Source: a virus
Direction: 5' to 3' (one strand)
IMG/VR virus record: IMGVR_UViG_3300042534_000747
Length of the DNA stretch: 64,000 bases
A program made the position numbers and the translations under genes. Shown here piece after piece: positions 30,088-60,965 of this stretch. The number at the start of each line of letters is the position of its first letter. Within the stretch, counting starts at the first letter, position 1. Under the pieces are notes generated by a model. That model saw nothing but the letters and a program-made list of their open reading frames with translations, did not search any database and was not told the DNA's origin.

Positions 30088-30248
30088 ATATAAATGTTAC
30101 TTAAAAATAGAAAACATTAATTAGATAATTAACTGTTTGAAAAATGTAAAGTAGAAGTAATTACCACATAGCAATTACATCACTTTAATCCAATATGACG
30201 GTTGGAATTCATAGAATGGCACTTATACTATAAATAAGTATCTAAATA

Positions 30249-56206: not shown

Positions 56207-56483
56207 TTGATTAATTATAAAATTTTTGGTTTCAATTTAAGTAGAGATTATGAAGGAAATTTTTATGGTGATGGAACATATGAAACAAAATATTTAGTGA
56301 TTCTTAGACATGATTCTTCAGATAAAAATATAGTTAAAGCATTAAGGGATATTGGATTTTTTTAGAAAAGGAATACATTCTACTAATTATAAAATAAGCG
56401 GTGATACTGAAAAATCGTTGATAATTAAATCTGCTAAGAGTGGAATGTTTATATGTGAATTAAGAAAAATAAATGATTATTAG
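56207..56483 (+). pseudogene. small gene with a 1-bp insertion in a T7 run (about 91 aa if repaired)
   Basis: ggtga SD plus TTG at 56207. Span is 277 nt (3n+1); removing one T at 56357-56363 restores the frame. Confidence 0.45.
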
Positions 56484-58717
56484 TCATTTATTTCTATACC
56501 TTTTTCTTCAAAGTACATATTTCTTGCATCAATGATGCTTGTTTTTGAAGGCAACTCATTATTTAGCATTTTTTGTCTACACCATCCATAAAAATAATTA
56601 TCGAATGCAGTATATAATTTGCTTTCATGTGGCTTGCCATTCTTCAGTACTATATCGAATGCACCACGAAGGTTTTTCCATGTATTATAGAAATGTCCTT
56701 TTGTTTTGGTCATGAAGCCTGTTGCATCTTCAATCACAAAACCTTCAACATATTCATTATTGTATTTGTAATTTTCAGAATTGACTTCATTATATAGTTC
56801 AAGGAAATCTTCTATATTGTCTACTGTATAGCAAAGTTCCTTTACTTCAATACCTAATTCATTGCCTAATTTTTGAACTTCATCATATGGAAGTTTTTCA
56901 TATTCAAATGTCCTTCTAACTAGGTCAAGTAAGATGATTTTTGGTTTTGAGTATTCAATTATATGAGGGTCTTTTTCAGGATGAATAACTTCAAAAATTG
57001 CACTAGTATTATTTATTTTATTATAATTTTTGAGAAATTCACGCTTTTCTTCTGTAACGGAATCATTGAATATTTCTTCAAATGTAAGTGCATAATTACC
57101 TGCATTATTTGAATATTCTTTTGCATCATATGATTTTGATGAAATGAATAGTTTGTCAAATTCACTGTTGTAACCTATAATTCCTAAAAATCCATTATAT
57201 TTTAGGTAGAATTTTACAGGGAACTGTAGATTCTTAATTAATTGTGAAAGTTGCACTTCAGGTATATTTCTCTGGTCTACATTGAAGAATTTTTCATATG
57301 AACGTGATACTATTTCAAGTGTACTAAGATTTATGAAAAGTCCTCTTGCTTTGATTGTCTGACTATTCCATTTATTGTTTCTAAATACTGAACTGGTAAA
57401 ATTATATGATATAACATTATCAGATAGAGCACGTTTATTAATATTGTTATTTGAATTTAACAAATTAATTATTTCATTATAAGATTTATTTAATGGTAAT
57501 TCAGTTCTTTTTTCATAAACCTTAAATACTGTATTTTTGATTTCAATAGGTGTGAAACCTGTGGAATCTAGTGTAAGGCATCTGAGATTACCACCTGATT
57601 CAATTTCATGGTTCAGATTGAAACATCTGTCATTGATTTGAATAGGGTCAAGTAATTTGTTTCTATGTCCGTGTACCTGATATGTATCATTAGGAGAATG
57701 CTTCATGAAGGCATTATTTACAATATTCATATCATCATACATACCAACTCCACGAATCATCTCATGGCAAGCTATGAAAGCTATGTTTTCAGGCATCTTA
57801 GAGATTCCTGCATGGGTTACAATTACATTTTTGTCATGGAATTTGTAATATAGGCATGGATAGAGCTTGCGATAGAACATTCTTGCATCTTTCTTTGTGA
57901 ATCCTGCATTAACAAGTTGATGAACTGTTTTATGCATAAATTCTTTAGATGCATATCTTGTTTCTGTTTCATTTGAATATCCCCAATTTTTCAAATGAAT
58001 TTCATGATTACCTTCAAGCATAACTACATTAGGCATGTTGATAATGCTTTTTAGGAAATTCATTACTTCACCATTTTCAATACCTCTATCAATATAGTCA
58101 CCTACAAAAATATAAAATTCATTAGGGTCAATTCCATTTTTGAGGTATTCCTGAAGAACTGTATTGCATCCATGAATATCTCCAATGTGATGAATTTTTT
58201 TGTAATTTGAAAGGTCTGTGATTTTGGTTTTAAATGTTTCATTAAAATCTTCAGGTTTAATTACAGTTACAAATGATTGTGGTTCAAGAACTTCAAACCT
58301 TGCATTCATCTTTTCAAGTACATCTTCAGGTACAAATTTATATTCTTCTCTATTTTTGTTTCTACGCTTTACTTCTTCAAGAGGTATGTCTGTAAAATCA
58401 AGTGCATAAACTCTATATTTGTATTTATCAGTGAGATTTTTGTATTTTTTGTAATCTTGGGTTCTGGAATGTGTAGCATCAATAATAATGAATTCTCCAC
58501 GTTCCATACGCTTTTCTACAAGCTCCATTATGAGTTTCCATACATAATTATCATTAAATTGAGAAATTCCATCTGTGCCATCAGGCATCTGTATAGGTGA
58601 CTGAACTAAAAGTCTAATAGAGTCTGCACTAATGGTATATTTTTCAAGATTATTATTTTTTAGGAAAGTGGATTTTCCACATCCTGCTATTCCTCTCATG
58701 AGTACTAAATTTTTCAT
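56480..58717 (-). CDS. RNA-repair fusion: polynucleotide kinase + calcineurin-like phosphoesterase + T4 Rnl1-like RNA ligase
   Basis: GIAGCGKST and DATH; GDIHG, GDYIDRG, GNHE, HAG, HGH; ARGLF, RSYEKFFN, KYNG, EGFV, KTK; start set at ATG 58717 after ggtga. Confidence 0.9.
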   Translation of the reverse strand: MKNLVLMRGIAGCGKSTFLKNNNLEKYTISADSIRLLVQSPIQMPDGTDGISQFNDNYVWKLIMELVEKRMERGEFIIIDATHSRTQDYKKYKNLTDKYKYRVYALDFTDIPLEEVKRRNKNREEYKFVPEDVLEKMNARFEVLEPQSFVTVIKPEDFNETFKTKITDLSNYKKIHHIGDIHGCNTVLQEYLKNGIDPNEFYIFVGDYIDRGIENGEVMNFLKSIINMPNVVMLEGNHEIHLKNWGYSNETETRYASKEFMHKTVHQLVNAGFTKKDARMFYRKLYPCLYYKFHDKNVIVTHAGISKMPENIAFIACHEMIRGVGMYDDMNIVNNAFMKHSPNDTYQVHGHRNKLLDPIQINDRCFNLNHEIESGGNLRCLTLDSTGFTPIEIKNTVFKVYEKRTELPLNKSYNEIINLLNSNNNINKRALSDNVISYNFTSSVFRNNKWNSQTIKARGLFINLSTLEIVSRSYEKFFNVDQRNIPEVQLSQLIKNLQFPVKFYLKYNGFLGIIGYNSEFDKLFISSKSYDAKEYSNNAGNYALTFEEIFNDSVTEEKREFLKNYNKINNTSAIFEVIHPEKDPHIIEYSKPKIILLDLVRRTFEYEKLPYDEVQKLGNELGIEVKELCYTVDNIEDFLELYNEVNSENYKYNNEYVEGFVIEDATGFMTKTKGHFYNTWKNLRGAFDIVLKNGKPHESKLYTAFDNYFYGWCRQKMLNNELPSKTSIIDARNMYFEEKGIEIND

Positions 58718-58767
58718 TTTTTCACCATTGATTAAACAATGGTTGTAATGATATTTAAAAGTATGCA

Positions 58768-58779
58768 AAAAAAAGAAAT
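58768..58779 (-). terminator. oligo-T terminator downstream of the CRISPR array
   Basis: A-run on the + strand (T-run on minus) about 30 bp past the last repeat. Confidence 0.45.
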
Positions 58780-58809
58780 TAATGAAGCCATTTTGCTTCA
58801 ATGTAGCCA

Positions 58810-59126
58810 GTCACAATTCAACATTGTTGGAATAATGTATTGTAACACCAGACAACAAAATAAGAAATATCAAAAGAAGCATAAGTCACAATTCAACATA
58901 TTTGAAATGTTGTATGACAACTAATCCATTCAAAAGAAGAAGAAGTTATATGTTAACATCACAATTCAACATTGTTGGAATGTTGTATTGTAACATTTAG
59001 TATGAGTCCTGATTGTCACAATTCAACATTGTTGGAGTGTTGTATGACAACTCTATTCTTGGTAATGTTGCATGAGCAGTATTATGTGTGTCACAATTCA
59101 ACATTGTTGGAGTGTTGTATGGCAAC
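58810..59126 (-). CRISPR. CRISPR mini-array: 5 x 37-bp repeats, 4 spacers
   Basis: Repeats at 58810-58846, 58885-58921, 58958-58994, 59015-59051 and 59090-59126. Minus-strand consensus GTTGTCATACAACACTCCAACAATGTTGAATTGTGAC. Unique spacers of 38, 36, 20 and 38 bp. Degeneracy is greater toward low coordinates. Confidence 0.88.
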
Positions 59127-59285
59127 ACTGTAATGTATATTGTTTTTATTTATACAACATTTAGTTGATGTTGATTCTTGAATCATTGATTTCCTAATGG
59201 AACATCTCAAACAAGCTCACCCCATATGTGCTACGGTGTATATGATTATTAATTATTTGAATTGTACTTGGTTATCGTACAAGTC
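59127..59285 (-). ncRNA. putative tracrRNA / omegaRNA-like leader RNA
   Basis: Own TATA at about 59304-59315. Hairpins TTGTAC/GTACAA and CCGTA-gcaca-TATGG; nested CTTG..TTGA..TTCC-atta-GGAA..TCAA..CAAG; repeat-complementary segment at 59152-59174. Confidence 0.6.
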
Positions 59286-59302
59286 ATATAATGTACGTTA
59301 TC

Positions 59303-59316
59303 ATATATAAATGTTC
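59303..59316 (-). promoter_or_regulatory. archaeal BRE/TATA driving the leader-array transcript
   Basis: Minus-strand AGAACATTTATATATG, matching the box found upstream of many minus-strand genes. Confidence 0.65.
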
Positions 59317-59360
59317 TGTAAGAAAAGAAATCTTGTATTTATAAAGAAAAAAATAAAAAT

Positions 59361-60566
59361 TCAACAAGAAATAGGTGCTGAATTTTTGATATTGATTGCT
59401 GCATTAATATCTCTATCATGAGTTGTATTACATGATGTGCATGTCCATTCTCTGATATTTAATCCCATTTTAGCAGTTTTTGTCCCACATACATTACAGA
59501 TGTGAGATGTTGCTTTCCATTGGTCTACTTCAATGACTGTTTTGCCTTCATATTCTGCTTTATATCGGAGTTGTCTGAAAAATTCACTCCATGATACATC
59601 TGCAATTGCTTTTGAAAGTTTTGGATTTTGCATCATTCCTTTTATGTTGAGGGTTTCAATTGCAATACAGTCATAGTTAGTTACTAATTCTTTTGAAATG
59701 TTGTGTTGGAAATCAGAACGTTGATTTGCAATTTTCTCATGGCAAGATGCAATAATTTTATTTTGTTTATGCCAATTATTTGAAAATTTTTGTTTTCTTG
59801 ATGCTCTACGTTGTAGTTTTGCAAGTTTCTTTTGTGAGGAAACAAAATATCTATTATTATCTATTTTTTTGCCATCTGAAAGAATTGCAAAATGAGTTAA
59901 TCCCATATCAATACCTATTGTGGTAGAATCGTTGTAGGGTATTTTTGGCATTTCAGGTAATCCATCTTCTACAAGAATTGAAATATAATATTTTCCTGAA
60001 GATGTTTTTGAAATTGTAGATGTTTTAATTAAATATTGGTCTGAAATTTTGAAGGTTTCACCATTATCATATGAAATCCAACATTTATTTTTAGATTGTT
60101 TAATTACATCAAAATTAGAATTTTCAAATTTTCTATGTAATCTACATTCAATTAGAGTTTTTAATTTTGGAATATTTATATATCCAGTTTTGAAGTTAAT
60201 TGAATAATTTTGATAAAATTGAAATGAATTACCTGATTTTTTATTTTTAAATTGAGGATATCCTACATCTATACCCTTTTTTTGCCCTCTAAAGAAATTT
60301 TTATATGCTGTATCAAGGTTACGCAATGTATATATTAAGCTTCCTGAACTAGCTTCTGAAATAAAAGGGTATTGTTCTTTCCATACACTGCTAATTAAAT
60401 CTTGACAATCTGATGGAAACATTGATTGATGTGCATTTTGATACATGAATGAACATGTATGCAATGATTTATTCCAAATGAATCTACAACAATCAAAATT
60501 TATTTTGAAAAATTCCTTCTGTTCTTCAGTTGGATAAATTCTATATTTATATGCTTTTAGTACCAT
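59361..60566 (-). CDS. tnpB: TnpB-family RNA-guided endonuclease, CRISPR-associated (Cas12f/V-U-like candidate)
   Basis: KAYKYRIYPTEEQ N-terminus; RuvC-I IGIDMG; RuvC-II IAIETL; CNVC...CTSC Zn finger; RuvC-III DRDINAAINI; no tnpA nearby. Confidence 0.9.
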   Translation of the reverse strand: MVLKAYKYRIYPTEEQKEFFKINFDCCRFIWNKSLHTCSFMYQNAHQSMFPSDCQDLISSVWKEQYPFISEASSGSLIYTLRNLDTAYKNFFRGQKKGIDVGYPQFKNKKSGNSFQFYQNYSINFKTGYINIPKLKTLIECRLHRKFENSNFDVIKQSKNKCWISYDNGETFKISDQYLIKTSTISKTSSGKYYISILVEDGLPEMPKIPYNDSTTIGIDMGLTHFAILSDGKKIDNNRYFVSSQKKLAKLQRRASRKQKFSNNWHKQNKIIASCHEKIANQRSDFQHNISKELVTNYDCIAIETLNIKGMMQNPKLSKAIADVSWSEFFRQLRYKAEYEGKTVIEVDQWKATSHICNVCGTKTAKMGLNIREWTCTSCNTTHDRDINAAINIKNSAPISC

Positions 60567-60596
60567 ATTTTAACCTGTGAATGTTATAGGTCAATT

Positions 60597-60623
60597 AATG
60601 GTTGTTCTAATATTTAAATGTTT
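60597..60623 (-). promoter_or_regulatory. element-type promoter of tnpB
   Basis: aatggttgttct-aa-tatttaaatgtttg; the aatggttgttct motif also precedes TATA boxes at 6514 and 34228. Confidence 0.6.
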
Positions 60624-60686
60624 GTTAAAAAAGAAAAAAAGAAAATTGAGTAACAAATGGATTATTATGGTATTGCAACCAATAAC

Positions 60687-60965
60687 TTACTGTAAATTTT
60701 CCCAATTATTTAATAATTCCTTTGCTTTTTTATCATTTGTAGTTCTTACAAAATCTAAAACTTCACTTAAATAAGGTTGTGTTCCATTATATATAATGAA
60801 ATAATGTACTCTTCTATCAATACGATTTATTTTTTCCATTTTGGTATAATATCTCAAAACATGAATTTTTCCTTTAAATGTTTTAAAATATTCTTTCATC
60901 ATAGAACCATTTGACATTACAGCACTTAATTGAGTTTGTTTTGATTTAACCATATTTTCATACAT
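60687..60965 (-). CDS. hypothetical protein
   Basis: 92-aa ORF. Confidence 0.5.
   Translation of the reverse strand: MYENMVKSKQTQLSAVMSNGSMMKEYFKTFKGKIHVLRYYTKMEKINRIDRRVHYFIIYNGTQPYLSEVLDFVRTTNDKKAKELLNNWENLQ

What the first reader, a model, noticed from the sequence alone, without database searches (positions are those of the whole stretch)
59127..59316. Leader looks like a detached omegaRNA scaffold whose last hairpin mirrors the CRISPR repeat
Seen on the minus strand after a TATA at about 59304-59315: hairpin UUGUAC-N9-GUACAA, hairpin CCGUA-GCACA-UAUGG followed by GGUGAGCUUG, and a nested stem CUUG/UUGA/UUCC-AUUA-GGAA/UCAA/CAAG. Then comes UCAACAU-CAACUAAA-UGUUGUAU (59174-59152), which can pair 7+8 bp with the repeat (AUACAACA...AUGUUGA) at exactly matching spacing. 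The same segment can instead fold on itself as CAACAU-N7-AUGUUG, the hairpin found in the repeats. Inference from my recollection of IS200/605 3' ends (ACCG..G..CGG-GG..AGC(C/T)TG...CA(A/G)GAA): this is the omegaRNA core moved out of the ORF under its own promoter. Its terminal hairpin would have been duplicated to found the repeats, a snapshot of omegaRNA splitting into tracrRNA and crRNA.
Basis: partly seen in the sequence, partly recalled or inferred. Interest (0 to 1): 0.85.

Follow-up and report, generated by a model that had tools for sequence, protein, structure and literature searches.

The report
Detached TnpB guide scaffold before mini-array
The stretch is the guide-RNA scaffold of a transposon nuclease (TnpB) that has been separated from its gene, given its own promoter and placed in front of five CRISPR-like repeats on a large archaeal virus-like element; it is a clear, base-by-base example of the already described step from transposon guide RNA to CRISPR.

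Summary
On the minus strand, 59246-59149 is a full-length homologue of the omegaRNA scaffold of IS605-type TnpBs. A covariance model built only from 18 relatives' omegaRNAs hits this one place in 64 kb (28.5 bits, E about 1e-5; next best 10.8 bits). In relatives the scaffold overlaps the end of tnpB. Here about 110 extra bases lie between them, carrying a T-run terminator and a TATA promoter of the element's own class, and the leader still holds dead codons of the old C-terminus. The 37-nt repeats are homologous to the guide-adjacent 3' module of the omegaRNA of the closest RNA relative (locus L094), where that module is already duplicated once. The scaffold's last hairpin shares its stem with the repeats and could pair with them over 7+8 bp, in the register of the canonical terminal stem. 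Because the repeat is a palindrome, most of this pairing is automatic, so it remains unproven. I found no transcripts, targets or close relatives. The kind is known (TranC systems, Cell 2025; type V-U candidates), and this scan has found TnpB-plus-mini-array loci read as the same kind on phages in other genomes. This one is a new, archaeal-element member.

The parts
59361..60566 (-). tnpB gene, 401 aa. RuvC residues D220, E304 and D386 and the zinc finger are intact. The protein ends 8 residues after the NAAINI motif.
   Evidence: Pfam HTH_OrfB_IS605, OrfB_IS605 and Cas12f1-like_TNB; alignment A1; closest solved structure is ISDra2 TnpB, E 2.6e-61
60597..60618 (-). Promoter of tnpB: a perfect match to the element's own TATA-plus-downstream motif. 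No transposon left end lies upstream.
   Evidence: best PWM score in the window
59343..59363 (-). Stop codon of tnpB followed by T-runs, a likely archaeal-type terminator.
   Evidence: sequence; inference
59300..59315 (-). Promoter-like site of the leader (BRE-like bases plus TATA box). The predicted start is about 59287-59284.
   Evidence: Three-mismatch match to the 22-nt motif (16 sites against 2.7 expected); PWM rank 23 of about 128,000 positions; the start site is inferred from spacing, not measured
59262..59282 (-). First leader hairpin (6 bp, 9-nt loop). It lies in the inserted stretch and has no detectable counterpart in relatives.
59217..59243 (-). Dead codons reading IYTVAHMG-stop, matching the C-terminus GYTVAHTG-stop of the closest relatives P0004 and P0002. 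They overlap stem A of the scaffold.
59149..59246 (-). omegaRNA scaffold core: stem A 59236-59222, long-range stem 59215-59212 with 59180-59177, inner hairpin 59210-59186, terminal hairpin.
   Evidence: Covariance model R1 from 18 relatives matches end to end, 28.5 bits, E 1.3e-5; the family structure covaries; blastn and nhmmer agree
59152..59174 (-). Terminal hairpin of the scaffold, the candidate anti-repeat. It is the counterpart of the canonical terminal stem and shares its 6-bp stem with the repeats.
59127..59151 (-). A/U-rich linker between scaffold and first repeat. It carries no terminator-like T-run and no promoter match.
   Evidence: similarity to a repeat is not significant
59090..59126 (-). 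Repeat 1 (37 nt).
59052..59089 (-). Spacer 1 (38 nt).
   Evidence: no match found
59015..59051 (-). Repeat 2.
58995..59014 (-). Spacer 2 (20 nt).
58958..58994 (-). Repeat 3. Its outer stem is a perfect 8 bp and its last base is U instead of C.
58922..58957 (-). Spacer 3 (36 nt).
58885..58921 (-). Repeat 4. Its changes fall at position 15, the base closing the inner stem, and in the loop (17, 21, 22).
58847..58884 (-). Spacer 4 (38 nt).
58810..58846 (-). Repeat 5, degenerate in its 5' inner arm. It is followed by trailing sequence that would serve as a last guide.
58767..58800 (-). Terminator-like hairpin plus a run of eight T that closes the unit.
   Evidence: (the only terminator-like site in 58650-60700)

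Best explanation
This is a domesticated TnpB guide-RNA locus of the transposon-to-CRISPR intermediate kind. It sits on a roughly 200-kb, 25% G+C, virus-like element with archaeal-type promoters. Shown: the leader (59246-59149, minus strand) is a homologue of the omegaRNA scaffold that in ordinary relatives overlaps the end of tnpB. Shown: about 110 bases have come between gene and scaffold, and they carry T-runs and a TATA site of the element's own promoter class. Shown: the transposon left end and tnpA are absent. Shown: the five 37-nt repeats are homologous to the guide-adjacent 3' module of the omegaRNA of the closest RNA relative, which already has that module twice. Inferred: one transcript starts near 59285 and ends at the hairpin and T-run at 58800-58767, carrying the scaffold plus five repeat-guide units. 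Inferred: the scaffold acts like a tracrRNA. Its terminal-hairpin arms would open and pair with the two arms of a repeat hairpin (7 bp plus 8-9 bp). This would rebuild the canonical terminal stem directly after the CAAGAA junction and leave an 8-nt tail before the guide, as in one-piece omegaRNAs (8-9 nt). Inferred: TnpB, whose nuclease residues are intact, then cuts DNA matching the 20-38-nt guides next to an unknown motif, probably in conflicts between mobile elements. The first unit may work as a natural fused single guide.
For: Covariance model R1, built without the window, gives a single end-to-end hit at 59246-59149 (28.5 bits, E 1.3e-5, next best 10.8 bits). The model's structure is backed by covariation in relatives (93.7% of cells paired, score 0.64 against 0.19 in shuffles). 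nhmmer finds the coding end and the scaffold 26 model positions apart in the profile built from relatives but 136 nt apart here. Dead codons IYTVAHMG-stop at 59243-59217 match the C-terminus of P0004 and P0002. The promoter motif occurs 16 times against 2.7 expected, including before tnpB and before the leader, and the leader site ranks 23rd by PWM. The only terminator-like hairpin lies after repeat 5. The repeat matches the duplicated 40-nt omegaRNA end of L094 at 26-27 of 40 positions without gaps, above all 300 shuffles, and in the same place relative to the scaffold. None of 26 other omegaRNAs has such a duplicate. The hairpin core is shared only by repeats 1-4 and the leader hairpin. Cofolding gives the two-helix duplex for repeats 1-4, 4-10 kcal/mol below the separate folds. 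The last 15 nt of the repeats differ at one base in five copies, while the 5' part varies. RuvC residues are intact. No Y1 transposase or Cas1/2/4 match among the 13 ORFs of at least 80 aa scanned around the locus (about 49.5-63.6 kb).
Against: No close relative carries the same leader or repeats, so leader-repeat covariation cannot be tested. Because the repeat is a palindrome, any copy of its hairpin is complementary to it, and only about 4 extra pairs (AUA/UAU and A/U) favour pairing in trans. Each repeat can also fold alone into a 14-15-bp hairpin (-5 to -12 kcal/mol), which competes with that pairing. Spacer lengths are irregular (20-38 nt) and no target was found. The leader fold is not more stable than shuffles. 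The protein tree does not place the gene.
Confidence: 0.6

Rival explanations
1. Fossil. The array is a decaying by-product of tandem duplication of the transposon's right-end module. Only a one-piece guide (scaffold plus the first or last unit), or nothing at all, is still used, and the leader hairpin is just the old terminal stem with no pairing role.
For: Repeats 3-5 differ from repeats 1-2 at 4-7 positions and repeat 5 has a damaged inner arm. Spacers are irregular and spacers 3 and 4 share a 10-nt word. No targets were found. The relative L094 shows a bare two-copy duplication with a 12-nt gap that is too short for a guide. The locus is a singleton.
Against: The gene is intact with all catalytic residues despite a long branch. 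It has a perfect copy of the element's promoter motif. The guide-adjacent 15 nt of the repeats are almost invariant. The unit is framed by a promoter-like site and a terminator.
Confidence: 0.2
2. Self-sufficient hairpin crRNAs. Each palindromic 37-nt repeat folds on its own and serves as the whole handle, as in tracrRNA-independent Cas12 enzymes, and the leader scaffold is vestigial.
For: Every repeat can form a long hairpin, and the variable positions 4-5 keep pairing with the constant tail (G-U/A-U and C-G/U-G). Nakagawa et al. proposed that palindromic repeats arose from condensed, duplicated omegaRNAs (PMC10097598).
Against: The protein is of ordinary TnpB size and far closer to ISDra2 TnpB (E 2.6e-61) than to any Cas12. 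Relatives of this kind use a scaffold of about 100 nt with four covarying stems. That scaffold is kept complete here, with a promoter-like site in front of it.
Confidence: 0.1
3. Not a guide system. The repeats are protein-binding or transposase-recognised palindromes (solo right ends or REP-like elements) unrelated to TnpB targeting.
For: The repeat has a two-part 13-11-13 layout of GUUG...AC words, as at the L094 element end, where similar words also occur at the left end.
Against: No Y1 transposase was found nearby. The hairpin core occurs nowhere else in 64 kb. Orientation, position and the tail next to each unique spacer match the scaffold-guide junction of omegaRNAs.
Confidence: 0.05

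Closest known systems
TranC (transposon-CRISPR intermediate) systems, Jin et al., Cell 2025 (known here through PMC13565253 and preprint 10.64898/2026.03.27.714800), including the 414-aa-class clade 9 (CauTranC9: 38-bp repeats, 5 repeats, from a Caudoviricetes genome)
   Same: A TnpB-sized effector with an intact nuclease. A short downstream array without adaptation genes. A helper RNA descended from the omegaRNA/right-end RNA lying between gene and array. A virus-like carrier. Size (401 aa), repeat length (37) and repeat number (5) resemble what is reported for clade 9.
   Different: Clade membership could not be tested because the sequences are not held. The only solved TranC (LaTranC) matches only the C-terminal 120 residues (E 5e-30), against E 2.6e-61 for ISDra2 TnpB. 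Here the scaffold keeps its complete terminal hairpin and the repeats are full palindromes, so the guide RNA is duplicated rather than cleanly split at the loop. The promoters are of archaeal type. Activity is untested.
Canonical IS200/IS605 TnpB with one-piece omegaRNA (ISDra2, PMC10097598 and PMC8612924; Methanosarcinales and Firmicutes relatives L049, L011, L096 and others)
   Same: Protein family and catalytic residues. Scaffold architecture (stem A, long-range stem, inner hairpin, terminal hairpin) and the conserved junction words. The guide lies 3' of the scaffold.
   Different: No tnpA and no left end. The scaffold does not overlap the ORF and has its own promoter-like site. There are five guide units instead of one flank-derived guide. 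The tail before the guide differs from the near-invariant GUAGUUCAC of relatives.
Unnamed TnpB locus L094 / L097 (proteins P0004 / P0002, Logan assemblies), the closest relative at RNA level
   Same: Stem A with the unusual GCRCA loop. The same C-terminal codons. The same start of the terminal stem. A 37-40-nt 3' module with 13-11-13 layout whose last 15 nt are identical to the window's repeats at 13 of 15 positions (second copy of the L094 module).
   Different: In L094 the scaffold still overlaps the ORF end, and the module is present only twice, 12 nt apart. Protein identity to the window is only 44-46%, and the tree does not confirm a sister relation.
Cas12f / type V-U tracrRNA-crRNA pairs (Altae-Tran et al. 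2023, PMC10691335)
   Same: The array lies downstream of a small RuvC effector with no cas1/cas2. The proposed origin is serial duplication of omegaRNA segments. The helper RNA would pair with the repeat in two helices.
   Different: The effector is not enlarged and is not close to Cas12f (E about 1e-6 to 1e-5). The helper is probably co-transcribed with the array. The pairing is not demonstrated.

Membership tests
IS200/IS605 TnpB (OMEGA) nuclease | RuvC-like fold with D-E-D catalytic residues and a zinc finger, matching the OrfB_IS605 / TNB profiles | tested here: met
   Pfam E 2.4e-27, 1.5e-23 and 3.9e-17; D220, E304 and D386 are invariant in alignment A1
IS200/IS605 TnpB (OMEGA) nuclease | omegaRNA scaffold encoded at and overlapping the 3' end of tnpB | tested here: not met
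   The scaffold is present but lies about 110 nt further from the coding end than in relatives and does not overlap the ORF
IS200/IS605 TnpB (OMEGA) nuclease | Mobile element with left and right ends and (often) a Y1 TnpA | tested here: not met
   No Y1_Tnp match among the 13 neighbouring ORFs of at least 80 aa scanned (about 49.5-63.6 kb). Only about 30 nt lie between the native promoter and the start codon, against about 170 nt of shared upstream sequence in L094 and L097
omegaRNA of the Methanosarcinales/Firmicutes TnpB group | Sequence-plus-structure match to a covariance model of the family | tested here: met
   R1 gives 28.5 bits, E 1.3e-5, all 104 positions, and is the only hit in the window. 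This is weaker than true family members (34-100 bits)
omegaRNA of the Methanosarcinales/Firmicutes TnpB group | Conserved tail GUAGUUCAC directly after the terminal hairpin, abutting the guide | tested here: not met
   The leader hairpin is followed by A/U-rich sequence. A tail of the right length (8 nt, ending in AC) is found only at the end of each repeat
Type V CRISPR-Cas / V-U candidates | RuvC effector next to an array of at least 3 direct repeats with unique spacers, array downstream of the gene | tested here: met
   Five repeats and four unique spacers, downstream and on the same strand. Spacer lengths of 20-38 nt are less regular than in typical arrays
Type V CRISPR-Cas / V-U candidates | Adaptation genes cas1/cas2/cas4 (optional; absent in V-F and V-U) | tested here: not met
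   No such Pfam hits among the 13 ORFs of at least 80 aa scanned in about 49.5-63.6 kb or among the 10 largest ORFs elsewhere in the window; smaller ORFs elsewhere were not scanned
TranC | TnpB-like effector whose guide is a tracrRNA plus crRNA derived from a right-end/omegaRNA | tested here: inconclusive
   Descent of both leader and repeats from an omegaRNA is supported. Function as two pairing RNAs is only modelled
TranC | Membership of a named TranC clade; activity with both CRISPR guides and right-end RNA | not testable with these tools
   Clade sequences are not held. LaTranC is only a distant match. Activity needs experiments
tracrRNA | Anti-repeat complementary to the repeat beyond chance | tested here: inconclusive
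   7+8(9) bp with matching spacing, but 11-12 of these pairs follow from the shared palindromic stem, and no relatives exist for covariation
tracrRNA | Transcribed and required for guide maturation or loading | not testable with these tools

The most novel reading that the evidence does not exclude
The locus preserves a route from omegaRNA to CRISPR that differs from a clean split at the terminal loop. In this route the 3' guide-adjacent module was serially duplicated (two copies in relative L094, five here) while the scaffold kept its own complete terminal hairpin. Guides would then be loaded by strand exchange between two like hairpins, the scaffold's and the repeat's. This would sit between the two routes sketched by Nakagawa et al.: palindromic, tracr-independent repeats versus a split tracrRNA/crRNA pair. 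It would be, to my knowledge, the first such case seen on an archaeal virus-like element.
Probability: 0.25. Interest if true: 0.65.

Novelty: new member of a known kind. Interest (0 to 1): 0.42.

Why it matters
That type V CRISPR effectors arose many times from TnpB, with arrays born from duplicated omegaRNA segments, was inferred from trees (PMC10691335). It was shown experimentally for TranC systems (Jin 2025). This locus adds a case in which the steps can be read directly in the sequence. The old C-terminal codons are stranded inside the leader. A terminator-promoter cassette sits between gene and scaffold. A relative is frozen at the two-copy stage. The carrier is a methanogen-type archaeal element, a setting for which I found no report in the papers I read. 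At 401 aa, with a scaffold of about 100 nt and a multiplexed array, it is also a candidate compact editor, if it is active. It does not open a new question.

Tried and rejected
Rfam gave nothing above noise on 58500-60800.

The leader's folding energy is not better than shuffles (z = -0.84).

A second candidate anti-repeat pairs leader 59266-59257 with repeat positions 26-35 over 10 bp, in the place where ISDra2 omegaRNA forms its pseudoknot. It is not significant: 91 of 2000 shuffles match it for the upstream 39 nt and 370 of 2000 for the whole leader. I dropped it as evidence.

The idea that the linker 59159-59127 is a decayed 'repeat 0' is not supported. Alignment scores are reached by 18-85% of shuffles.

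Spacer targets were sought in the window, phage and plasmid records and IMG/VR for spacers 1 and 2. None was found.

Relatives were sought by repeat core, stem-A word and module pattern in viral and metagenome contigs. The only returns were four chance single matches.

A protein tree left the window's TnpB on a long unsupported branch, so the kinship with P0002 and P0004 rests on RNA-level characters.

Sigma-70-type promoters are not enriched (14 found against 15.7 expected), which fits an archaeal-type promoter instead.

P0008 and P0011 carry an insertion at the same site. P0011 also sits in an ordinary element with a Y1 transposase and a canonical omegaRNA scoring 94 bits.

Full report
What is there. 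The minus strand of 58,767-60,618 holds one compact unit. It starts with a 401-aa tnpB gene (60566-59361) behind a promoter motif at 60618-60597. T-runs follow the stop codon (59363-59343). Next comes a second promoter-like site (59315-59300) and a leader of about 160 nt. After that lie five 37-nt repeats (first bases 59126, 59051, 58994, 58921, 58846) with spacers of 38, 20, 36 and 38 nt. The unit ends with a hairpin and a run of eight T (58800-58767). The protein matches the three TnpB profiles and keeps the RuvC residues D220, E304 and D386. Its closest solved relative is ISDra2 TnpB (E 2.6e-61), far ahead of LaTranC (5e-30, C-terminal part only) and Cas12f (about 1e-6 to 1e-5). The nearest database proteins are ordinary TnpBs of Methanosarcinales and Firmicutes at 41-46% identity.

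The carrier. The contig is 202.5 kb with 25% G+C. No whole genome is held for it. A helicase in the window looks viral. A 22-nt TATA-plus-downstream motif occurs 16 times against 2.7 expected, mostly just upstream of minus-strand ORF starts. Bacterial-type promoters are not enriched. This fits a large archaeal virus-like element, as earlier unchecked notes of this scan also suggest.

The observation. The core of the last leader hairpin, CAACAY-N7-AUGUUG, is found without mismatch only there and in repeats 1-4 in the whole window. The 7+8-bp complementarity with equal 8-nt internal strands is real.

Is the leader an omegaRNA? I fetched 80 loci encoding relatives and read what follows their genes. 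The archaeal and many Firmicutes loci share a scaffold of about 102 nt. It has a covarying hairpin (stem A), the words AGCYUG and CARGAAGC forming a long-range stem around an inner hairpin, a terminal hairpin, and a near-invariant 9-nt tail ending at the transposon boundary. I built a covariance model from 18 of these sequences, leaving out the window, and scored every position of both strands of the 64 kb. It gave one significant hit, 59246-59149 on the minus strand. The hit covers all 104 model positions at 28.5 bits, E about 1e-5 (calibration is rough), and the next best score is 10.8 bits. blastn to L011 (E 1.6e-4) and nhmmer agree. On an alignment of 25 family members the model's 22 pairs are 93.7% formed. 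The covariation score is 0.64 against 0.19 in shuffles and at most 0.21 when partners are slid (that alignment is fitted to the model).

Detachment from the gene. In the profile built from relatives, the end of the conserved coding block and stem A are 26 positions apart. In the window they are 136 nt apart. The extra stretch of about 110 nt holds the stop codon, the T-runs, the TATA site and the first hairpin. The two closest relatives at RNA level, P0004 (L094) and P0002 (L097), read through stem A and end in GYTVAHTG-stop. The window's leader still reads IYTVAHMG-stop in the same place (59243-59217), now stranded about 120 nt behind the real stop codon. The leader's TATA site shares 16 identical bases with the promoter at 30094. 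By a matrix built from eleven other sites it ranks 23rd among about 128,000 positions. tnpB itself has a perfect copy of the motif and only about 30 nt of upstream sequence. L094 and L097 share about 170 nt upstream. No Y1 transposase or adaptation gene appears among the 13 neighbouring ORFs of at least 80 aa that I scanned, between about 49.5 and 63.6 kb. The gene is therefore immobilised and wired into the element's own expression.

Where the repeats come from. L094 has stem A with the same unusual loop and the same start of the terminal stem as the window. Its omegaRNA 3' end is present twice: 40 nt at 2675-2714 and at 2727-2766, 12 nt apart. The window's repeat, with 3 preceding bases, matches these two copies at 26-27 of 40 positions without gaps. 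That is the best match anywhere in L094 and above all 300 shuffles, whose maximum was 25. Both units have the same 13-11-13 layout, and the last 15 nt before the guide agree at 13 of 15 positions with the second L094 copy. None of 26 other canonical omegaRNAs has a second copy of its end within 500 nt. So the repeats descend from the guide-adjacent module of the omegaRNA. In L094 that module starts at the 3' arm of the terminal stem and runs downstream. It is the 'serial duplication of omegaRNA segments' proposed by Altae-Tran et al. (PMC10691335), seen here at two stages.

How it probably works. In ISDra2 the terminal stem (stem 4) and the pseudoknot next to the guide correspond to the two repeat/anti-repeat helices of Cas12f, and the omegaRNA is a 'natural single guide' joined by a loop (PMC10097598). 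In the window, pairing of leader 59174-59168 with repeat positions 23-29 would rebuild that stem directly after the CAAGAA junction. It would leave an 8-nt tail before the guide, against 8-9 nt in the one-piece relatives. Pairing of 59159-59152 with repeat positions 7-14 would add a second helix. Cofolding predicts exactly this for repeats 1-4, 4-10 kcal/mol below the separate folds, and not for the damaged repeat 5. In favour: the register, the four pairs that extend beyond the shared palindrome, the near-invariance of the last 15 nt of the repeats, and the absence of a terminator between scaffold and array. Against: any two copies of one palindromic hairpin are complementary. Each repeat can also fold alone into a 14-15-bp hairpin whose variable positions keep pairing. 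There is no relative with which to test covariation and no RNA data. I put the descent of the leader from an omegaRNA at about 0.9, and the tracr-like pairing at about 0.4-0.5.

Comparison with what is known. The split of an omegaRNA into a helper RNA and CRISPR RNAs was proposed in 2023. It was demonstrated for TranC systems in 2025 (Jin et al., as cited in PMC13565253). A 2026 preprint describes a 414-aa-class TranC clade from a Caudoviricetes genome with 38-bp repeats and five repeats. This scan has also reported several TnpB-plus-mini-array loci on phages in other genomes. The present locus belongs to that kind. Whether it falls into a named clade could not be tested. Three things are particular here: the archaeal-type setting, the stranded codons and inserted terminator-promoter cassette, and the combination of an intact scaffold hairpin with fully palindromic repeats. 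A two-copy relative marks an earlier stage.

Limits. The locus is a singleton in every collection searched. No protospacer was found. The protein tree is unresolved. Transcription, processing, target motif and activity are all inferred.

Noticed in passing
window 56480-58716 (-): Directly downstream of the array, behind its own perfect promoter motif (58759-58738), lies a fusion of a P-loop kinase (AAA_33), a calcineurin-like phosphoesterase and a T4 Rnl1-type RNA ligase. This is a complete RNA end-healing and sealing enzyme of the kind phages use against tRNA-cleaving defences.
   Followed up: partly
window, 16 sites, e.g. 6535, 30094, 34929, 41080, 53045, 55840, 58759, 60618, 61985 (-): A strong promoter class (TATA box, 4 nt, then an ACAACCATT-like word) lies 3-31 nt upstream of ORF starts. 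This implies leaderless or short-leader mRNAs. Nearly all sites are on the minus strand.
   Followed up: partly
L094 2675-2766 and 1310-1331 / 2768-2794: The relative's omegaRNA end is duplicated (40 nt, 75% identity, 12 nt apart). The whole tnpB unit is flanked by a direct repeat of about 22 nt that is itself part of a palindrome. This is an unusual boundary for an IS200/IS605 element.
   Followed up: partly
window 59266-59257 with repeat positions 26-35: A 10-bp complementarity links the leader, 5' of stem A, to the repeat tail next to the guide. It lies where ISDra2 omegaRNA forms its pseudoknot. It is not significant by shuffling but is worth a mutational test.
   Followed up: yes
window 60030-60125 (residues about 150-185 of TnpB): A 30-aa insertion relative to most relatives is shared in position with P0008 and P0011. 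P0011 lies in an ordinary transposon with TnpA, so the insertion is not tied to the array.
   Followed up: yes
window 58922-58957 and 58847-58884: Spacers 3 and 4 share a 10-nt T/C-rich word (CTTCTTTTGA). It may be chance in A/T-rich sequence, or a trace of unit duplication.
   Followed up: no
window 59361-60566: The TnpB sits on a long terminal branch (0.74 substitutions per site against a median of 0.13). This suggests fast evolution after immobilisation or strong A/T pressure.
   Followed up: partly
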